Source: a virus
Taxonomy: Duplodnaviria; Caudoviricetes
IMG/VR virus record: IMGVR_UViG_3300037467_000821
Location: 3,162 to 67,161 of that record
Direction: 5' to 3' (one strand)
DNA length: 64,000 nucleotides
How positions within the stretch are numbered: position 1 is the first letter of the stretch; each line of letters starts with the position of its first letter. Of the stretch, positions 2,266-10,474 are shown one piece after another. The notes below the pieces were generated by a model, which had not been told where the DNA came from, searched no databases, and saw only the letters and a program-made list of their open reading frames with translations. Both the position numbers and the translations under genes were made by a program.

Positions 2266-3030
2266 ATGAAGCACCCCATTTCGGTGGCTGAGCTGTTGGA
2301 GCTCCACCACCTCGGCGAGCTGTACGTCAAGTGGGCCACGAACCCGGTCGCCATGTCCGAGGAGGACGTGGAGGAGCTGCAGGAGATCTCGGATCGGTAC
2401 TCGATCAACGGGACCTCCGCGCTCTTCTCCTTCCAGAAGAAGTGGCAGCAGGAATTCGGGCTCACCGCCGCGAACACGTTCTCCATCCACGAGGTCGCCA
2501 AGGAGGTTCTGGCGGTCGCGGAGGCGCAGAAGGAGATCCGGTACGAGGAGAAGCTCATCACGAACTCCGTCGAGGACACCGGCGTTCTCGAGCTGCCCGA
2601 GTTCGGCGGCGAAGCGCCGAAGGAGTTCCGGCAGGCCCACGAGACCATGCAGGAGGTTCTCCGCGAGGAGGAGAGGCTCATGCAGGAAGAGGACGACCTC
2701 TACGAAGAGTACGAGAAGCCGACCGGCGCGGAGATGGACGAGGCGCTCCGCGAGCAGCTGCACGAGGACAATGAGGTCGACCGCGAGGCCGAGGCGCAGT
2801 ACCGCGCGGACCAGCTCCGGGACGCCCTGCTGGAGAACCAGCTCGAGACCGAGCGCGAGATCGAGATCCTCAAGCAGATCTCCAACGTCGACGAGCTGAC
2901 GCCTACGGAAAACGCCCGGCTCGACGAGCTCGTCACCAAGAAGGTGTCGGCGATGAACTCCGGCACCCACAGGATCCCGACCGGCGTGCTGGCCCAGGCC
3001 GTCGGCGGTAGTGAGAAGGGAAGCAAGTGA
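2266..3030 (+). CDS. highly acidic hypothetical protein (254 aa)
   Basis: GAGGAG SD 7 nt before ATG 2266; Glu/Asp-rich helical sequence. Confidence 0.8.
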   Translation: MKHPISVAELLELHHLGELYVKWATNPVAMSEEDVEELQEISDRYSINGTSALFSFQKKWQQEFGLTAANTFSIHEVAKEVLAVAEAQKEIRYEEKLITNSVEDTGVLELPEFGGEAPKEFRQAHETMQEVLREEERLMQEEDDLYEEYEKPTGAEMDEALREQLHEDNEVDREAEAQYRADQLRDALLENQLETEREIEILKQISNVDELTPTENARLDELVTKKVSAMNSGTHRIPTGVLAQAVGGSEKGSK

Positions 3031-3311
3031 ACAAGAGGATCATCGTGGCCCTGGCAGCCGTCCTCGGGTTCGTGCTGCTGAGCGCGGAGGGCTGCGCGCA
3101 GAAGCGGATCGGCATCGTCAACGACGTTGTCGGCCCGCCGCTCTCGAACACTCTCGGCTGCAACGCCAACAAGGGCGGCAACTGGAGCATCAGCGTCGAC
3201 CCCGACGGCCACGAGGGTGAGTCCATCGACGAGCGGGCGAAGTACCGGCAGCACTTCTGCGTGACCGAGCCCCAGGCCAAGAAGTACAAGTCGGGGAGCG
3301 TGTACCCGTGA
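3027..3311 (+). CDS. lipoprotein (94 aa)
   Basis: Signal peptide ending AEGC; two further Cys. Confidence 0.7.
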   Translation: MNKRIIVALAAVLGFVLLSAEGCAQKRIGIVNDVVGPPLSNTLGCNANKGGNWSISVDPDGHEGESIDERAKYRQHFCVTEPQAKKYKSGSVYP

Positions 3312-3445: not shown

Positions 3446-3517
3446 CAAGGGAGTCCCGGCGTGCGCTCGCAGATCGGCGCCGGGACGCGAGTAAATTAAT
3501 TCGCAGGAGGTGATCAT

Positions 3518-3535
3518 ATGGCCCTGTCGGCCTAA
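3518..3535 (+). CDS. 5-codon minigene MALSA with a perfect Shine-Dalgarno
   Basis: AGGAGGTGATC (3505-3515) then ATG GCC CTG TCG GCC TAA. Confidence 0.4.
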   Translation: MALSA

Positions 3536-3624
3536 ACGGGCTACGCCCGATGCCGAAGGTCAAGTTTGGGTCTAGCTCGCCAGGGTTAACGACATCCCCC
3601 GAGCCGCCCTGGCGAGCGGCCAAA

Positions 3625-3696
3625 GCCCCTATGGTGTAATGGATGCACACCGGTGTCTTCGATCCGGAGGAGAGGGTTCGAATCCCTACAGGGGCA
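3625..3696 (+). tRNA. atypical tRNA / tRNA-like element, most resembling tRNA-Arg(TCG), enlarged anticodon arm
   Basis: Acceptor GCCCCT/AGGGGC, D stem GTGT/GCAC, T arm GAGGG-TTCGAAT-CCCTA; anticodon arm CCGG-TGT-CTTCGAT-CCGG; no encoded CCA. Confidence 0.6.
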
Positions 3697-3730
3697 CGCA
3701 AGGTCAAGGAACTCCGCCCAGGCGGAGTGA

Positions 3731-3809
3731 GGAGCCATAGTGTAAAGGCAGCACGCCGGGTGCATTGAGCGCCTTAACGGTAGAGCGGGTTCGAATCCCG
3801 TTGGCTCCG
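3731..3809 (+). tRNA. atypical tRNA-like element (Asp/Glu-type body) with a 25-nt aberrant anticodon arm
   Basis: Perfect acceptor GGAGCCA/TGGCTCC, G73, D stem GTGT/GCAC, T arm GCGGG-TTCGAAT-CCCGT; anticodon unassignable (TTG possible); no CCA. Confidence 0.65.
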
Positions 3810-3893
3810 CAAGCAGCCCGGGTGACAAGTGATGATCCTTCGGGACGTGAAGACCTTGCACCCGGGCTGCCCCCATAGAGGAGGAGAGCAGCA

Positions 3894-4277
3894 ATGACCA
3901 TCATCCAGCAGGTCCGCGACGTCCTGGAGGCCAACGCGGGTACGGCCATGACGACGGCCGAGATCGCGGCGAACCTCGACGGGATCACCACCGCGCAGGT
4001 CAGCACCGCGCTGTGGCGGCTCCGTACCGAGGAGGACCTCATCAAGCAGGTCCGCACCGGCGTGCACAAGTACCTCGGTGCGAGCGAGCGCATGCCGAAG
4101 CTGGCCGCGACGATCGAGAAGACCAAGGACGTCTTCGCGGGCTCCGTCTCGGACGCCATCGCGGAGGACGAGACGGCCGACCACAAGTTCTACACCCAGG
4201 TCGGACGCGCCGCGAACGGCGATCCGATCCTCACCAACGACGCGACCGGTCAGGTCTACAGGGCGACCCCGGTTTAG
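3894..4277 (+). CDS. winged helix-turn-helix DNA-binding protein
   Basis: MTTAEIAANLDGITTAQVSTALWRL HTH pattern; strong SD. Confidence 0.75.
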   Translation: MTIIQQVRDVLEANAGTAMTTAEIAANLDGITTAQVSTALWRLRTEEDLIKQVRTGVHKYLGASERMPKLAATIEKTKDVFAGSVSDAIAEDETADHKFYTQVGRAANGDPILTNDATGQVYRATPV

Positions 4278-4292
4278 ACCCTCCCTGCGGGA

Positions 4293-4303
4293 TAGGGTAG
4301 GGT
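4293..4303 (+). promoter_or_regulatory. TAGGG-TARRNT promoter-like motif
   Basis: TAGGGTAGGGT in intergenic gap; motif recurs at 10766, 15355, 36189, 43777, 63566. Confidence 0.55.
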
Positions 4304-4326
4304 AGTACCTGAGTCGCGGCTACGGT

Positions 4327-8518: not shown

Positions 8519-10474
8519 ATGGCTTACATCGACGCTGGAATGGAGGGTAGGTACATCTTCGCCTCCGTCCACCCGTACGACCCGGACATGAAAGACCGGC
8601 TGAAGTACGAAATCCCCGGGGCGGCTTACGAGCCCGAAACGAAGAGGTGGAGGTATCCGCTTGATCTGGCGGTTTGCTATGCGCTTCGTGACGTCTTCGG
8701 CAAGGCGCTCCGGGTTCGTGTCCCGCTCGCGGAGTGGGCGGCGAAGGAGATCAAGCTCCGCAAGGAGCTTCAGGACCTTGCTACGGCGGACACTGCGTCT
8801 GTCCGGTTTTTGGCCGAAGAGGCCCCGGTCCTATATGCCGCGATGCAGGCCCGCCCGTATCAGCTGGTGGGTTCGGCTTGGATCTCGAGGACTGGGAGTG
8901 CCCTCCTTGGCGACGACCCGGGCCTGGGCAAGACTCTGCAGGTCATGGGTGCGGTGGTAGAGTCCGGTATTGCCGGACCGATTCTCGTGTTCGCCCCGAA
9001 GACCGCCGCGCTAGTCACGTGGCCCGACGAGCTACGTAAATGGCTCCCTGACGATGACTTCACCGTTGTCTCGCACCTCCCGGGGGTACGGCGCCGTCAA
9101 GTCATCGGCAACTACCTGCGTCGGGCTCGGGGCGCGTACGAGCGCGGCCAGCGGGCCTGGCTGATCTGCAACATGGAGATGGTGCGGATCAAGGTTCACA
9201 AGGAGAAGGATTACCGTGGCCGGGACACCAAGGTAACCAAGAAGGACTCCAGGGGCAACATCCTGACCACGGTGCACTACCCGCAGCTGTTCGATGGCAT
9301 CAAGTGGCAAGCTGTGATCATCGATGAGAGCCAGAATGCGCTGATCACGCAGACGCCGCAGTGGTGGAATCAGACGCAGGTTCGTGCCGGGCTCACCAAG
9401 CTCCCCATCGCCAAGGGTGGACTGAAGGTGGCGCTTAGCGGAACCTTCATGCGTGGCAAGCTGGAGAATGCCTGGGGCACGCTGAACTGGTTGGATCCGG
9501 AGAAATACACCAGTTACTGGAACTGGTGCCAGAAGCGCTTCACGGTGACGGACAAGTTCTTCGGTGGCCAGAACATCAGCGAGAACACTCTGGACGACAT
9601 GGAGGAGCGGGCGCTTGCGGAGTTCTACGACGAGCTCCGACCGTACATGCTTCGCCGTACCAAGGCTGAGGTCGCCACAGACCTCCCGCCGAAGCAGTAC
9701 GCCGGTACTCGGCTGGTAGAGCAGAACCCTGACTCCCCGCCTGGGATCTGGTTGCCGATCGAGGGCAAGCAGCTGAAGCTGTACCGCGAGATGAAGGCCG
9801 ATGCCGAGATGCGGCTCTCAAACGGCACGCTCATGGCGATGGGCATTCTGCACGAGATGTCGCTGCTGAAGCAGGTCGCCTCCTCGGCGGGAAGCATGCG
9901 GGTCTCGGTCGACAAGGAAGGCAAGGAGCACTACCATTACGTGCCCGAGTTGCCCTCAATCAAGTTCGACTGGCTGCTCGAATGGCTTACCGAGCGCGGC
10001 ATGTGTGGCGAGAAGTTCGGCGACAGCAAGGTCGTGATCGCCAGCCAGTACACGAGCCTGTTGAACCTGTACGTCAGTGAGTTGAACAAGTTCGGCGTAG
10101 AGACCTTTTTGTTGACTGGCGAGACCTCGCCGAACAAGCGCAAGCAGATGGCGAACCGCTTCCAGGAGCCGGGCGGCCCTCGGGTGTTCATGTTGAACAC
10201 AACGGCCGGTGGCGTATCCCTTACCCTGGACGCGGCAGATGACCTCATCCTGCTTGATGAGACCTGGATTCCGGACGACCAGACCCAGGTTGAGGACCGA
10301 ATTCATCGCGTGTCGCGCATTCACAATGTGACGATTTGGTACGTCCGGATGCTCGGCACCATTGAAGAGACGATCGCGACCGTCGCAGGCGGACGCGACC
10401 AGCTTCAGCGTAAGCTCATGGACGGCCAGCGCGGCGTGGGCTACGCGAAGCAGCTGCTCGGGGAGGCGAAGTGA
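8519..10474 (+). CDS. SNF2-family (SF2) DNA helicase
   Basis: DDPGLGKT, IIDESQ, LSGT, MLRRTK, GGVSLTL, QVEDRIHR motifs. Confidence 0.92.
   Translation: MAYIDAGMEGRYIFASVHPYDPDMKDRLKYEIPGAAYEPETKRWRYPLDLAVCYALRDVFGKALRVRVPLAEWAAKEIKLRKELQDLATADTASVRFLAEEAPVLYAAMQARPYQLVGSAWISRTGSALLGDDPGLGKTLQVMGAVVESGIAGPILVFAPKTAALVTWPDELRKWLPDDDFTVVSHLPGVRRRQVIGNYLRRARGAYERGQRAWLICNMEMVRIKVHKEKDYRGRDTKVTKKDSRGNILTTVHYPQLFDGIKWQAVIIDESQNALITQTPQWWNQTQVRAGLTKLPIAKGGLKVALSGTFMRGKLENAWGTLNWLDPEKYTSYWNWCQKRFTVTDKFFGGQNISENTLDDMEERALAEFYDELRPYMLRRTKAEVATDLPPKQYAGTRLVEQNPDSPPGIWLPIEGKQLKLYREMKADAEMRLSNGTLMAMGILHEMSLLKQVASSAGSMRVSVDKEGKEHYHYVPELPSIKFDWLLEWLTERGMCGEKFGDSKVVIASQYTSLLNLYVSELNKFGVETFLLTGETSPNKRKQMANRFQEPGGPRVFMLNTTAGGVSLTLDAADDLILLDETWIPDDQTQVEDRIHRVSRIHNVTIWYVRMLGTIEETIATVAGGRDQLQRKLMDGQRGVGYAKQLLGEAK

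What the first reader, a model, noticed from the sequence alone, without database searches (positions are those of the whole stretch)
3731..3809. tRNA mimic with a perfect acceptor/T-arm but a branched 25-nt anticodon arm
Seen: perfect 7-bp acceptor (GGAGCCA/TGGCTCC, G73), Asp-like T arm and Glu-like D stem, while the anticodon arm is CCG-[GGTGC-ATTGA-GCGCC]-TTAA-CGG, 8 nt longer than canonical and forming its own hairpin. Keeping the elbow and acceptor intact while remodelling the anticodon suggests selection for shape rather than decoding. Inference: decoy for tRNA-targeting defence nucleases, ligand for T-box or synthetase, or RNase P/Z processing signal (mascRNA-like) releasing neighbouring RNAs.
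Basis: partly seen in the sequence, partly recalled or inferred. Interest (0 to 1): 0.7.

Follow-up and report, generated by a model that had tools for sequence, protein, structure and literature searches.

The report
Phage glutamine-tRNA look-alike, lengthened anticodon arm
An uncultured soil actinophage carries a gene that folds like a glutamine tRNA everywhere except the anticodon arm, which is two base pairs plus a four-base bulge too long and lacks the universal U33, so it very probably cannot decode; whether it is a working tRNA-shaped decoy or a recently broken gene stays open, because no relative carrying it could be retrieved.

Summary
Window 3731-3809 (+) is called a tRNA by Rfam (45.5 bits, cut-off 29) and by ARAGORN (Gln, UUG). 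It has a perfect 7-bp acceptor stem, G73, and intact D and T arms. Its anticodon arm is 25 nt instead of 17.

The arm is not branched. It is one helix: 3 bp, a 4-nt 3' bulge (UUAA), 4-5 bp, then the loop C-A-UUG-A-G. The D arm is of the glutamine type and the loop matches tRNA-Gln(UUG) loops at 5 of 7 positions, with A at position 33. So this is a remodelled tRNA-Gln gene.

Removing any single insert does not restore a canonical arm, so it is not a mini-intron. The phage is a 67-kb, probably lytic, Gordonia/Rhodococcus-like virus from soil.

Distant relatives carry canonical tRNA-Gln(UUG) and tRNA-Lys(UUU) near the same helicase. No homologue with this arm was found in any collection I could reach. 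In one near-identical strain the hairpin-plus-tRNA cassette is replaced by 81 other bases.

- **Best reading (0.4):** a non-decoding, tRNA-shaped RNA kept for its body.
- **Close rival (0.35):** a freshly inactivated gene.

This scan has noted similar phage tRNA look-alikes on other DNA.

The parts
3731..3809 (+). tRNA-Gln(UUG)-derived tRNA-like gene ('tRNA2'), 79 nt including discriminator G; no encoded CCA
   Evidence: Rfam RF00005 45.5 bits; ARAGORN Gln-UUG; cloverleaf is the minimum-energy fold
3731..3737 (+). acceptor stem 5' strand GGAGCCA; pairs with 3802-3808 (TGGCTCC), 7/7 Watson-Crick
   Evidence: sequence, fold
3740..3754 (+). D arm, glutamine type (GTGT-AAAGGCA-GCAC; A14, G18G19, A21 present)
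   Evidence: the 17-mer including U8 and A9 recurs in IMG/VR tRNA genes, most readable as tRNA-Gln; alignment with tRNA-Gln of related phages
3756..3780 (+). remodelled 25-nt anticodon arm: outer stem CCG/CGG, inner stem GGUG(C)/(G)CGCC, loop (C)AUUGA(G)
   Evidence: no single deletion restores a canonical arm
3765..3767 (+). relic anticodon UUG, preceded by A (3764) where U33 should be
   Evidence: ARAGORN drawing; loop compared with canonical tRNA-Gln loops
3774..3777 (+). 4-nt 3' bulge UUAA inside the anticodon helix; removing it would leave CCGGG/CCCGG, a perfect 5-bp stem
   Evidence: sequence, fold
3785..3801 (+). T arm GCGGG-UUCGAAU-CCCGU (G53, U54 U55 C56, A58, C61 present)
   Evidence: matches Asp/Glu tRNA T arms of cultured phages
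3625..3697 (+). neighbouring tRNA-like gene ('tRNA1'): lysine-type acceptor, glutamine-type D arm, anticodon CUU in a slipped stem or 8-nt loop, C37, mismatches at 7:66 and 49:65
   Evidence: Rfam 36.2 bits; ARAGORN drawing; alignment
3711..3728 (+). hairpin B between the two tRNA-like genes (7 bp, z -4.1); swapped together with tRNA2 in strain X6
3813..3870 (+). hairpin C, 12-bp base with a cUUCGg-capped top (-36.4 kcal/mol, z -5.9), directly before the ribosome-binding site and ATG of gene 3894-4277; no U tract
3575..3617 (+). hairpin A upstream of tRNA1 (11-bp base, z -4.3)

Best explanation
The gene descends from a phage tRNA-Gln(UUG) gene. Its anticodon helix has been lengthened by two base pairs and given a 4-nt bulge, and U33 has become A. 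The acceptor stem, D arm, variable loop, T arm and elbow nucleotides are all kept.

Inferred mechanism:
- It is transcribed with tRNA1 from the 580-nt non-coding island between genes 3027-3311 and 3894-4277.
- It folds into an L shape.
- It is trimmed by the host's RNase P and 3' tRNA-processing enzymes and receives CCA.
- It cannot place its anticodon in the ribosomal decoding centre.
- It therefore acts through its body, most plausibly as a harmless stand-in (decoy or sponge) for a host factor that recognises tRNA-Gln or tRNA bodies during infection, such as a tRNA-directed defence nuclease or an enzyme that modifies tRNA ends.

Shown here: the descent, the architecture and the incompatibility with canonical decoding geometry. 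Inferred: expression, processing and the decoy role.
For: 1. It is a tRNA by score and fold. It is glutamine-type by its D arm, 4-nt variable loop, G73 and the loop C-A-UUG-A-G, which shares 5 of 7 positions with the C-U-UUG-A-N loops of tRNA-Gln(UUG) in related phages.
2. All changes sit in the anticodon arm. Outside it there is no broken pair (7/7 acceptor, 4/4 D, 5/5 T) and no lost core nucleotide. Long neutral decay would have hit the other 54 nt too (my inference).
3. The new arm is a clean helix, with only G-U wobbles (which pair in RNA but not in DNA) and a single bulge. It is not a set of mismatches.
4. No single insert can be removed to give a working arm, so the odd shape would be the mature shape.
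5. A second high-GC phage has a glutamine-type tRNA body with a sealed 22-nt arm (L222:4920-4998, Rfam 35.9 bits).
6. Three relatives of this phage keep a 69-nt non-canonical tRNA-like gene beside tRNA-Gln, with compensatory changes. So tRNA look-alikes are kept in this kind of phage.
7. Published work shows that phage tRNAs can counter tRNA-cutting defences (PMC10264068, read; PMC11464382 and PMC11555353, abstracts only).
Against: - It is a singleton. No homologue with this arm was found in IMG/VR, the JGI metagenome contigs, GTDB genomes or GenBank phages, so no conservation or covariation could be shown.
- A strain that differs by under 1% in the flanks carries 81 other bases in place of 3703-3807, so the cassette is dispensable or exchangeable.
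- The sister gene tRNA1 has several defects. Both genes score well below the canonical tRNAs of relatives (36 and 45 bits against 54-74), which fits general relaxation of selection.
- The whole arm is no more stable than 7% of shuffles.
- No phage gene for a tRNA-handling protein was found.
- No target of the supposed decoy is known.
Confidence: 0.4

Rival explanations
1. Freshly inactivated gene. A working tRNA-Gln(UUG) was hit by one or two recent events (a 4-nt insertion in the 3' strand of the stem, a small insertion in the loop region, and U33 to A). It is now a dead tRNA that has not yet had time to decay or be deleted.
For: - Relatives carry canonical tRNA-Gln(UUG) genes near the same helicase.
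- Only this lineage shows the arm.
- The neighbouring tRNA1 is also damaged.
- The cassette is replaced in a near-identical strain.
- CAA, the codon a UUG anticodon reads best, is rare in this phage (2.6 per 1000), so loss would cost little.
- Removing UUAA alone would restore a perfect CCGGG/CCCGG stem, which is what a single recent insertion would look like.
Against: - At least three separate changes are concentrated in 25 nt, while 54 nt elsewhere carry none.
- The extra bases form additional perfect pairs rather than disorder.
- Phage genomes usually lose useless DNA quickly (established knowledge), yet the gene is identical where a contig of another soil run (X4) covers it, 3756-3809.
Confidence: 0.35
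2. Processing punctuation. The two tRNA-like modules and the three strong hairpins serve as RNase P and 3'-end cleavage sites and as end-protecting stems. They cut the early transcript and give the downstream mRNA (3894-4277 onward) a defined, stable 5' end. Only the acceptor/T-arm half matters, so the anticodon arm is free to drift.
For: - The alternating layout hairpin A, tRNA1, hairpin B, tRNA2, hairpin C sits directly before a ribosome-binding site and ATG.
- All hairpins are far more stable than shuffles (z -4 to -6).
- No sigma-70-type promoter or U-tract terminator lies within the island.
- The acceptor and T arm of tRNA2 are perfect.
Against: - A free-drifting arm would not be expected to stay a clean helix.
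- The D arm and elbow nucleotides, which processing needs less, are also fully kept.
- tRNA1 has its mismatches exactly in the acceptor/T stack.
- There are no expression data.
Confidence: 0.1
3. Still a working glutamine tRNA. Its unusual arm and A33 make it resistant to a host anticodon nuclease, as reported for anticodon-loop variants of other phage tRNAs.
For: - UUG sits at the right place in a 7-nt loop with A37 in ARAGORN's drawing.
- Acceptor stem and G73 are of the glutamine type.
- There is published precedent for loop changes that evade nucleases (PMC10264068).
Against: - The helix between elbow and anticodon is 7-8 bp plus a bulge instead of 5 bp. As far as I recall, the longest anticodon stem among tRNAs known to work in translation is 6 bp (tRNA-Sec, tRNA-Pyl); this is from memory.
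- U33, needed for the U-turn, is A.
- C32 and G38 can close the loop to 5 nt.
- The 1:72 pair is G-C instead of the U-A of the bacterial-type tRNA-Gln seen in the relatives.
Confidence: 0.1
4. tRNA gene with a short protein-spliced insert (mini-intron), like the inserts reported in Lak megaphage tRNAs and noted repeatedly by this scan.
For: - Such inserts exist in phage tRNA genes (PMC6784885; earlier notes).
- A glutamine-type family found here (L191 and four others) becomes a perfect tRNA-Gln(CUG) when 11 nt next to the loop are removed.
Against: For the window's gene, an exhaustive test of every single contiguous deletion gives no arm with at least 4 stem pairs, U33 and a purine at position 37.
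Confidence: 0.03

Closest known systems
Canonical tRNA-Gln(UUG) genes of related actinophages (for example L172:8973-9045, L173:8694-8766, L107:7666-7737, L096:3571-3643)
   Same: D arm GTGTAA(N)GGCAGCAC, 4-nt variable loop, G73, UUG anticodon with A37. Position upstream of the same SNF2-type helicase, often next to a lysine tRNA.
   Different: They have the standard 5-bp stem, 7-nt loop with U33, U1-A72, and Rfam scores of 54-67 bits. The window's gene has a 25-nt arm, A33, G1-C72 and 45.5 bits.
Phage tRNAs that evade or neutralise tRNA-cutting defences (mycobacteriophage loop variants, PMC10264068; T5 tRNA-Lys against PARIS, PMC11464382; tRNA-Tyr against retron and other effectors, PMC11555353)
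   Same: Phage-encoded, derived from an ordinary isoacceptor, altered in the anticodon region, with a proposed role in the arms race over tRNA.
   Different: Those are fully functional tRNAs with point changes in the loop that replace the cut host tRNA. This one has a lengthened helix and could act only as a non-decoding stand-in. No defence system or target is known here.
Insert-bearing phage tRNA genes ('enigmatic introns' of Lak megaphages, PMC6784885; the L191 family found here)
   Same: A tRNA body with extra bases in the anticodon arm that pair with the loop region. The L191 family even shares the acceptor GGAGCYA, the glutamine-type D arm and an NUAA 3' bulge.
   Different: In those, removing one insert gives a canonical arm (L191: CGGAG-GUCUGAA-UUCCG). 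In the window's gene no such deletion exists.
tRNA-like RNAs that do not decode: mascRNA (RF01684), bacterial Y-RNA-like YrlA (RF02553), Bacillus cereus pseudo-tRNA 'tRNA-Other' (PMC3399842, abstract only)
   Same: A tRNA-shaped fold used, or proposed to be used, for something other than decoding. mascRNA is released by RNase P and RNase Z.
   Different: tRNA2 has no Rfam match to mascRNA or YrlA and the phage has no Ro60/TROVE gene. YrlA has closed ends (from memory), unlike this gene's free acceptor ends. mascRNA has a shortened rather than lengthened anticodon arm (from memory).

Membership tests
Elongator tRNA (Rfam RF00005) | Score at or above the curated gathering threshold over the full model | tested here: met
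   45.5 bits against 29, model positions 1-71
Elongator tRNA (Rfam RF00005) | 7-bp acceptor stem; D arm with G18G19; T arm with UUCRANY loop; core nucleotides U8, A14, A21, G53, A58, C61 | tested here: met
   All present in the sequence
Elongator tRNA (Rfam RF00005) | 5-bp anticodon stem closing a 7-nt loop with U33 and a purine at position 37 | tested here: not met
   7-8 bp helix with a 4-nt bulge; A at position 33; the loop can close to 5 nt
Elongator tRNA (Rfam RF00005) | Aminoacylation and codon-dependent decoding | not testable with these tools
   Needs biochemistry
tRNA-Gln isoacceptor (bacterial type) | Glutamine-type D arm, 4-nt variable loop, G73, YUG anticodon | tested here: met
tRNA-Gln isoacceptor (bacterial type) | U1-A72 first pair (seen in all tRNA-Gln genes of the related phages; an identity element, from established knowledge) | tested here: not met
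   G1-C72 in the window's gene; U1-A72 in the relatives
Phage tRNA genes with a short insert (mini-intron) | One contiguous insert whose removal restores a canonical anticodon arm | tested here: not met
   Exhaustive deletion test negative for the window and positive for the L191 family
mascRNA / YrlA type tRNA-like RNAs | Match to the family's covariance model; for YrlA also a linked Ro60 (TROVE) gene | tested here: not met
   No match for 3731-3809 at E up to 1; no TROVE domain in the whole 67-kb record
Phage anti-defence tRNA (decoy or replacement) | Demonstrated protection against a tRNA-directed defence system | not testable with these tools
   Host and its defence systems are unknown; this needs infection assays
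attP-linked tRNA copy / tRNA-dependent lysogeny (PMC10865867) | Phage integrase, with the tRNA complementing a disrupted host gene | tested here: not met
   No tyrosine or serine integrase domain in the record

The most novel reading that the evidence does not exclude
High-GC phages keep a class of non-decoding RNAs built on the tRNA-Gln scaffold. Their anticodon helix is lengthened and sealed (this gene; L222:4920-4998). They are matured like tRNAs and soak up a host immune or stress factor that recognises tRNA bodies or tRNA-Gln, without entering translation. The locus is a swappable anti-defence cassette, as the replacement in strain X6 would suggest.
Probability: 0.2. Interest if true: 0.75.

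Novelty: new variant of a known kind. Interest (0 to 1): 0.4.

Why it matters
Phage tRNA genes are now known to matter in the contest over tRNA-cutting defences, but the described cases are working tRNAs. A tRNA body that is kept while its anticodon helix is rebuilt so that it cannot decode would be a different tactic, shape without function in translation. It would give a handle on host factors that read tRNA bodies in Actinobacteria.

If it is only a broken gene, it still marks how such genes die: by changes in the anticodon arm first. It also warns that ARAGORN and Rfam report it as an ordinary tRNA-Gln.

Tried and rejected
**Searches for homologues**
- blastn of the locus and of the 79 nt against 50,697 GenBank phages: no full-length match, only T-arm pieces.
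- IMG/VR scans with the T-arm/acceptor half, the D arm, and D arm plus T loop at canonical or longer spacing: none showed the same arm.
- Neighbouring proteins and the helicase as single queries in IMG/VR: no relatives.
- Helicase alignment in IMG/VR, JGI metagenomes and GTDB genomes: nothing closer than 53% identity.
- Acceptor plus D-arm pattern in GTDB genomes: no match.

**Closer relatives that could not be fetched**
- Closer relatives exist as proteins (P0002-P0005, helicase 79-85% identical).
- I tried to reach their DNA through a spurious antisense ORF over the tRNA: nothing found.

**Other attempts**
- Sequencing runs: no RNA holder listed.
- The 81 replacement letters in run X6 were not shown by the tool.
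- ARAGORN's intron mode gave nothing useful.
- Mini-intron reading: rejected.
- Integration-site or lysogeny role: rejected, no integrase.
- Ro60/Y-RNA, RtcB repair and a phage CCA-adding enzyme: none present.
- Neighbouring proteins carry only domains of unknown function.
- A 9-bp complementarity between 3756-3764 and 3857-3865 could form an alternative to hairpin C. I considered it and set it aside: the modular fold is both the minimum-energy and the centroid structure, and one such match is expected by chance in a GC-rich 650-nt stretch (my estimate).
- The five-codon ORF with a strong ribosome-binding site at 3518-3535 has no Lys or Gln codons, so a codon-matched attenuator does not apply.

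Full report
**Setting**

The window is bases 3162-67161 of a 67,161-bp IMG/VR virus record that CheckV rates complete. GC content is 62% and nearly all genes lie on the + strand.

Its SNF2-type helicase (8519-10474) is 43-46% identical to helicases of Gordonia and Rhodococcus phages. DNA near-identical to the window occurs in soil and rhizosphere runs. No tyrosine or serine integrase domain is present, so the phage is probably lytic.

The whole record has only two tRNA-model matches, which lie side by side. They sit in a 580-nt gap between genes 3027-3311 and 3894-4277, in the same orientation as those genes.

The sequence at 3731-3809 contains:
- a perfect 7-bp acceptor stem;
- U8;
- a 4-bp D stem with A14, G18G19 and A21;
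- G26;
- a 25-nt anticodon arm;
- a 4-nt variable loop;
- a 5-bp T stem with the loop UUCGAAU;
- G73.

Rfam scores it 45.5 bits against a cut-off of 29. The only departure is 19 nt where the model has 11. RNAfold returns this cloverleaf both alone and in context.

The arm is best described as follows:
- three pairs: C26-G50, C27-G49, G28-C48;
- a 3' bulge UUAA (3774-3777);
- four pairs: G29-C43, G30-C42, U31-G41, G32-C40;
- the loop C-A-U-U-G-A-G, whose ends can pair to leave a 5-nt loop.

Relative to a normal arm this adds two base pairs and a four-base bulge, which gives the 8 extra nucleotides. It is a bulged helix, not a branch. The arm alone is only mildly more stable than shuffles (z -1.5); the inner hairpin is clearly more stable (z -3.5).

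**Descent**

- The 17-mer TAGTGTAAAGGCAGCAC (U8 to the end of the D arm) occurs in 23 IMG/VR stretches. Most are tRNA genes that I read as Gln (UUG or CUG).
- Phages with related helicases (35-53% identity) often carry tRNA-Gln(UUG), frequently next to tRNA-Lys(UUU). In several loci these lie 1-2 kb upstream of the helicase.
- Those genes score 54-67 bits. They have the same D arm and variable loop, G73, and loops of the form C/U-U-UUG-A/G-N.
- The window's loop C-A-UUG-A-G differs from C-U-UUG-A-N only at positions 33 and 38.

So the gene is a remodelled tRNA-Gln(UUG), not a chance look-alike.

The first pair is G-C rather than the U-A of the relatives' tRNA-Gln.

**Can it decode?**

Nothing here tests this directly, but three features argue against it:
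- A in place of the near-universal U33.
- A loop that can close to five bases.
- A helix two to three pairs longer than any anticodon stem I know to work on the ribosome (6 bp in tRNA-Sec and tRNA-Pyl, from memory), plus a bulge.

High-GC actinobacteria charge tRNA-Gln through GluRS and GatCAB. These read the anticodon and the U1-A72 pair (established knowledge), and both are altered here.

The phage has little need for it. CAA occurs at 2.6 per 1000 codons, against 36.2 for CAG.

**Is it an insert to be spliced out?**

Earlier notes of this scan and the Lak megaphage paper (PMC6784885) describe phage tRNA genes with short inserts in the anticodon arm. I tested every single contiguous deletion.

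- For the window's gene, none gives a stem of at least four pairs with U33 and a purine at position 37.
- For a glutamine-type family that my IMG/VR scan turned up (L191, L206, L225, L229, L275), removing 11 nt just 3' of the loop gives a perfect CGGAG-GUCUGAA-UUCCG arm, a tRNA-Gln(CUG). In L225 the result is a CUA suppressor.

That family shares the acceptor GGAGCYA, the D arm and an NUAA bulge with the window's gene, so a common origin is possible. The window's gene is no longer convertible.

**Selected shape or fresh wreck?**

For selection:
- Every change lies in the arm, while 54 other nucleotides keep all pairs and all core bases.
- The added bases pair cleanly, including G-U wobbles that pair only in RNA.
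- Another high-GC phage has a glutamine-type body with a sealed 22-nt arm (L222:4920-4998, 35.9 bits) inside a small cluster of tRNA-like modules.
- Three relatives conserve a 69-nt tRNA-like gene without a D arm beside tRNA-Gln, with compensatory changes.

Against selection:
- No homologue with this arm exists in any collection I could search.
- The neighbour tRNA1 is itself defective. It has an A-C mismatch at 7:66, a G-A mismatch at 49:65, a slipped stem or 8-nt loop, and C37, and it scores 36.2 bits.
- In run X6 a 1356-nt contig matches 3300-3702 with 2 differences and 3808-4137 with 3 differences, but carries 81 other bases instead of 3703-3807, which is hairpin B plus the gene.
- Removing UUAA alone would restore a perfect 5-bp stem, which is what a recent insertion would leave.

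A contig of run X4 covers 3756-4326 without substitutions, with one inserted base behind 3869. So the arm is not an assembly error.

**Surroundings**

- The island alternates strong hairpins with the two modules. Hairpin A is 3575-3617, B is 3711-3728 and C is 3813-3870, with z between -4 and -6.
- It ends at the ribosome-binding site of gene 3894-4277.
- No sigma-70-type promoter or U-tract terminator was found in the island.
- Flanking proteins carry only domains of unknown function: DUF2786, DUF6011, DUF7574.
- The record has no TROVE/Ro60, RtcB or CCA-adding enzyme gene.

**Verdict**

The gene is a tRNA-Gln(UUG) derivative that very probably does not decode. I rate the readings as follows:
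- 0.4: a non-decoding tRNA-shaped RNA kept for its body, with decoy the most plausible job.
- 0.35: a freshly inactivated gene.
- 0.1: processing punctuation.
- 0.1: a still-working, nuclease-resistant tRNA.
- 0.03: an insert that is spliced out.

It is a new variant of a known kind, the phage tRNA look-alike, and this scan has noted related cases on other DNA. The decisive data are the locus in the 79-85% relatives and the 81 bases in strain X6.

Noticed in passing
window 3625-3697 (+): The neighbouring tRNA-like gene is a mosaic: lysine-type acceptor (GCCCCUA, A73), glutamine-type D arm, anticodon CUU. It has either an 8-nt loop or a slipped stem with a C-C mismatch, C at position 37, and mismatches at 7:66 and 49:65. 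Rfam gives only 36.2 bits. AAG is the phage's commonest Lys codon (53.6 per 1000).
   Followed up: partly
window 3703-3807: In soil run X6 a contig that is about 99% identical in both flanks carries 81 different bases in place of hairpin B plus the tRNA-like gene. This is a precise cassette swap between near-identical strains. The replacement letters were not shown.
   Followed up: partly
window 3505-3535 (+): A perfect AGGAGG ribosome-binding site lies 7 nt before a five-codon ORF (ATG GCC CTG TCG GCC TAA) at the start of the structured island. It has no Lys or Gln codons, and its meaning is unknown.
   Followed up: no
L191:949-1030, L206:619-700, L275:3304-3385 (+); L225:291-372, L229:2398-2479 (-): A family of glutamine-type tRNA genes sits inside tRNA arrays of uncultured phages with 41-48% GC. 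Each has an 11-nt insert (GCAGGACAUAA) just 3' of the anticodon loop that pairs with the anticodon. Removing it gives a perfect tRNA-Gln(CUG); in L225 it gives a CUA amber suppressor. ARAGORN misses these genes; Rfam scores L191 at 34.1 bits.
   Followed up: partly
L173:8923-8991, L178:8821-8889, L105:85-153: A conserved 69-nt tRNA-like gene without a D arm: 7-bp acceptor, T arm, and a central 6-bp hairpin with the 9-nt loop CUUUAGCAC. In L173 and L178 it lies about 150 nt after tRNA-Gln(UUG), in phages related to this one by their helicase. Two pairs show compensatory changes. Its acceptor and T arm resemble those of the window's tRNA1.
   Followed up: partly
L222:4920-4998 and G001:C1:152272-152924: A 162-kb phage contig (locus GC 59%) has a glutamine-type tRNA body with a sealed 22-nt arm (5 bp, a 1x1 internal loop, 3 bp, a tetraloop). 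Beside it lie two truncated tRNA-like matches and one good tRNA-Pro.
   Followed up: partly
L197, L220, L268, L278; L007, L226, L227, L247, L254, L277: Phage tRNA genes that combine the glutamine-type D arm with a long variable arm. Their anticodon loops read CUA (amber suppressor) in the first group or UAU in the second.
   Followed up: no
L001:11-85 (-), L002:812-886 (-): AT-rich phage contigs carry a canonical tRNA with anticodon UCA (it would read UGA). Its acceptor, D arm and T arm are nearly the same as those of the window's tRNA-like gene (GGGGCCA..., identical 22-nt 3' half).
   Followed up: no
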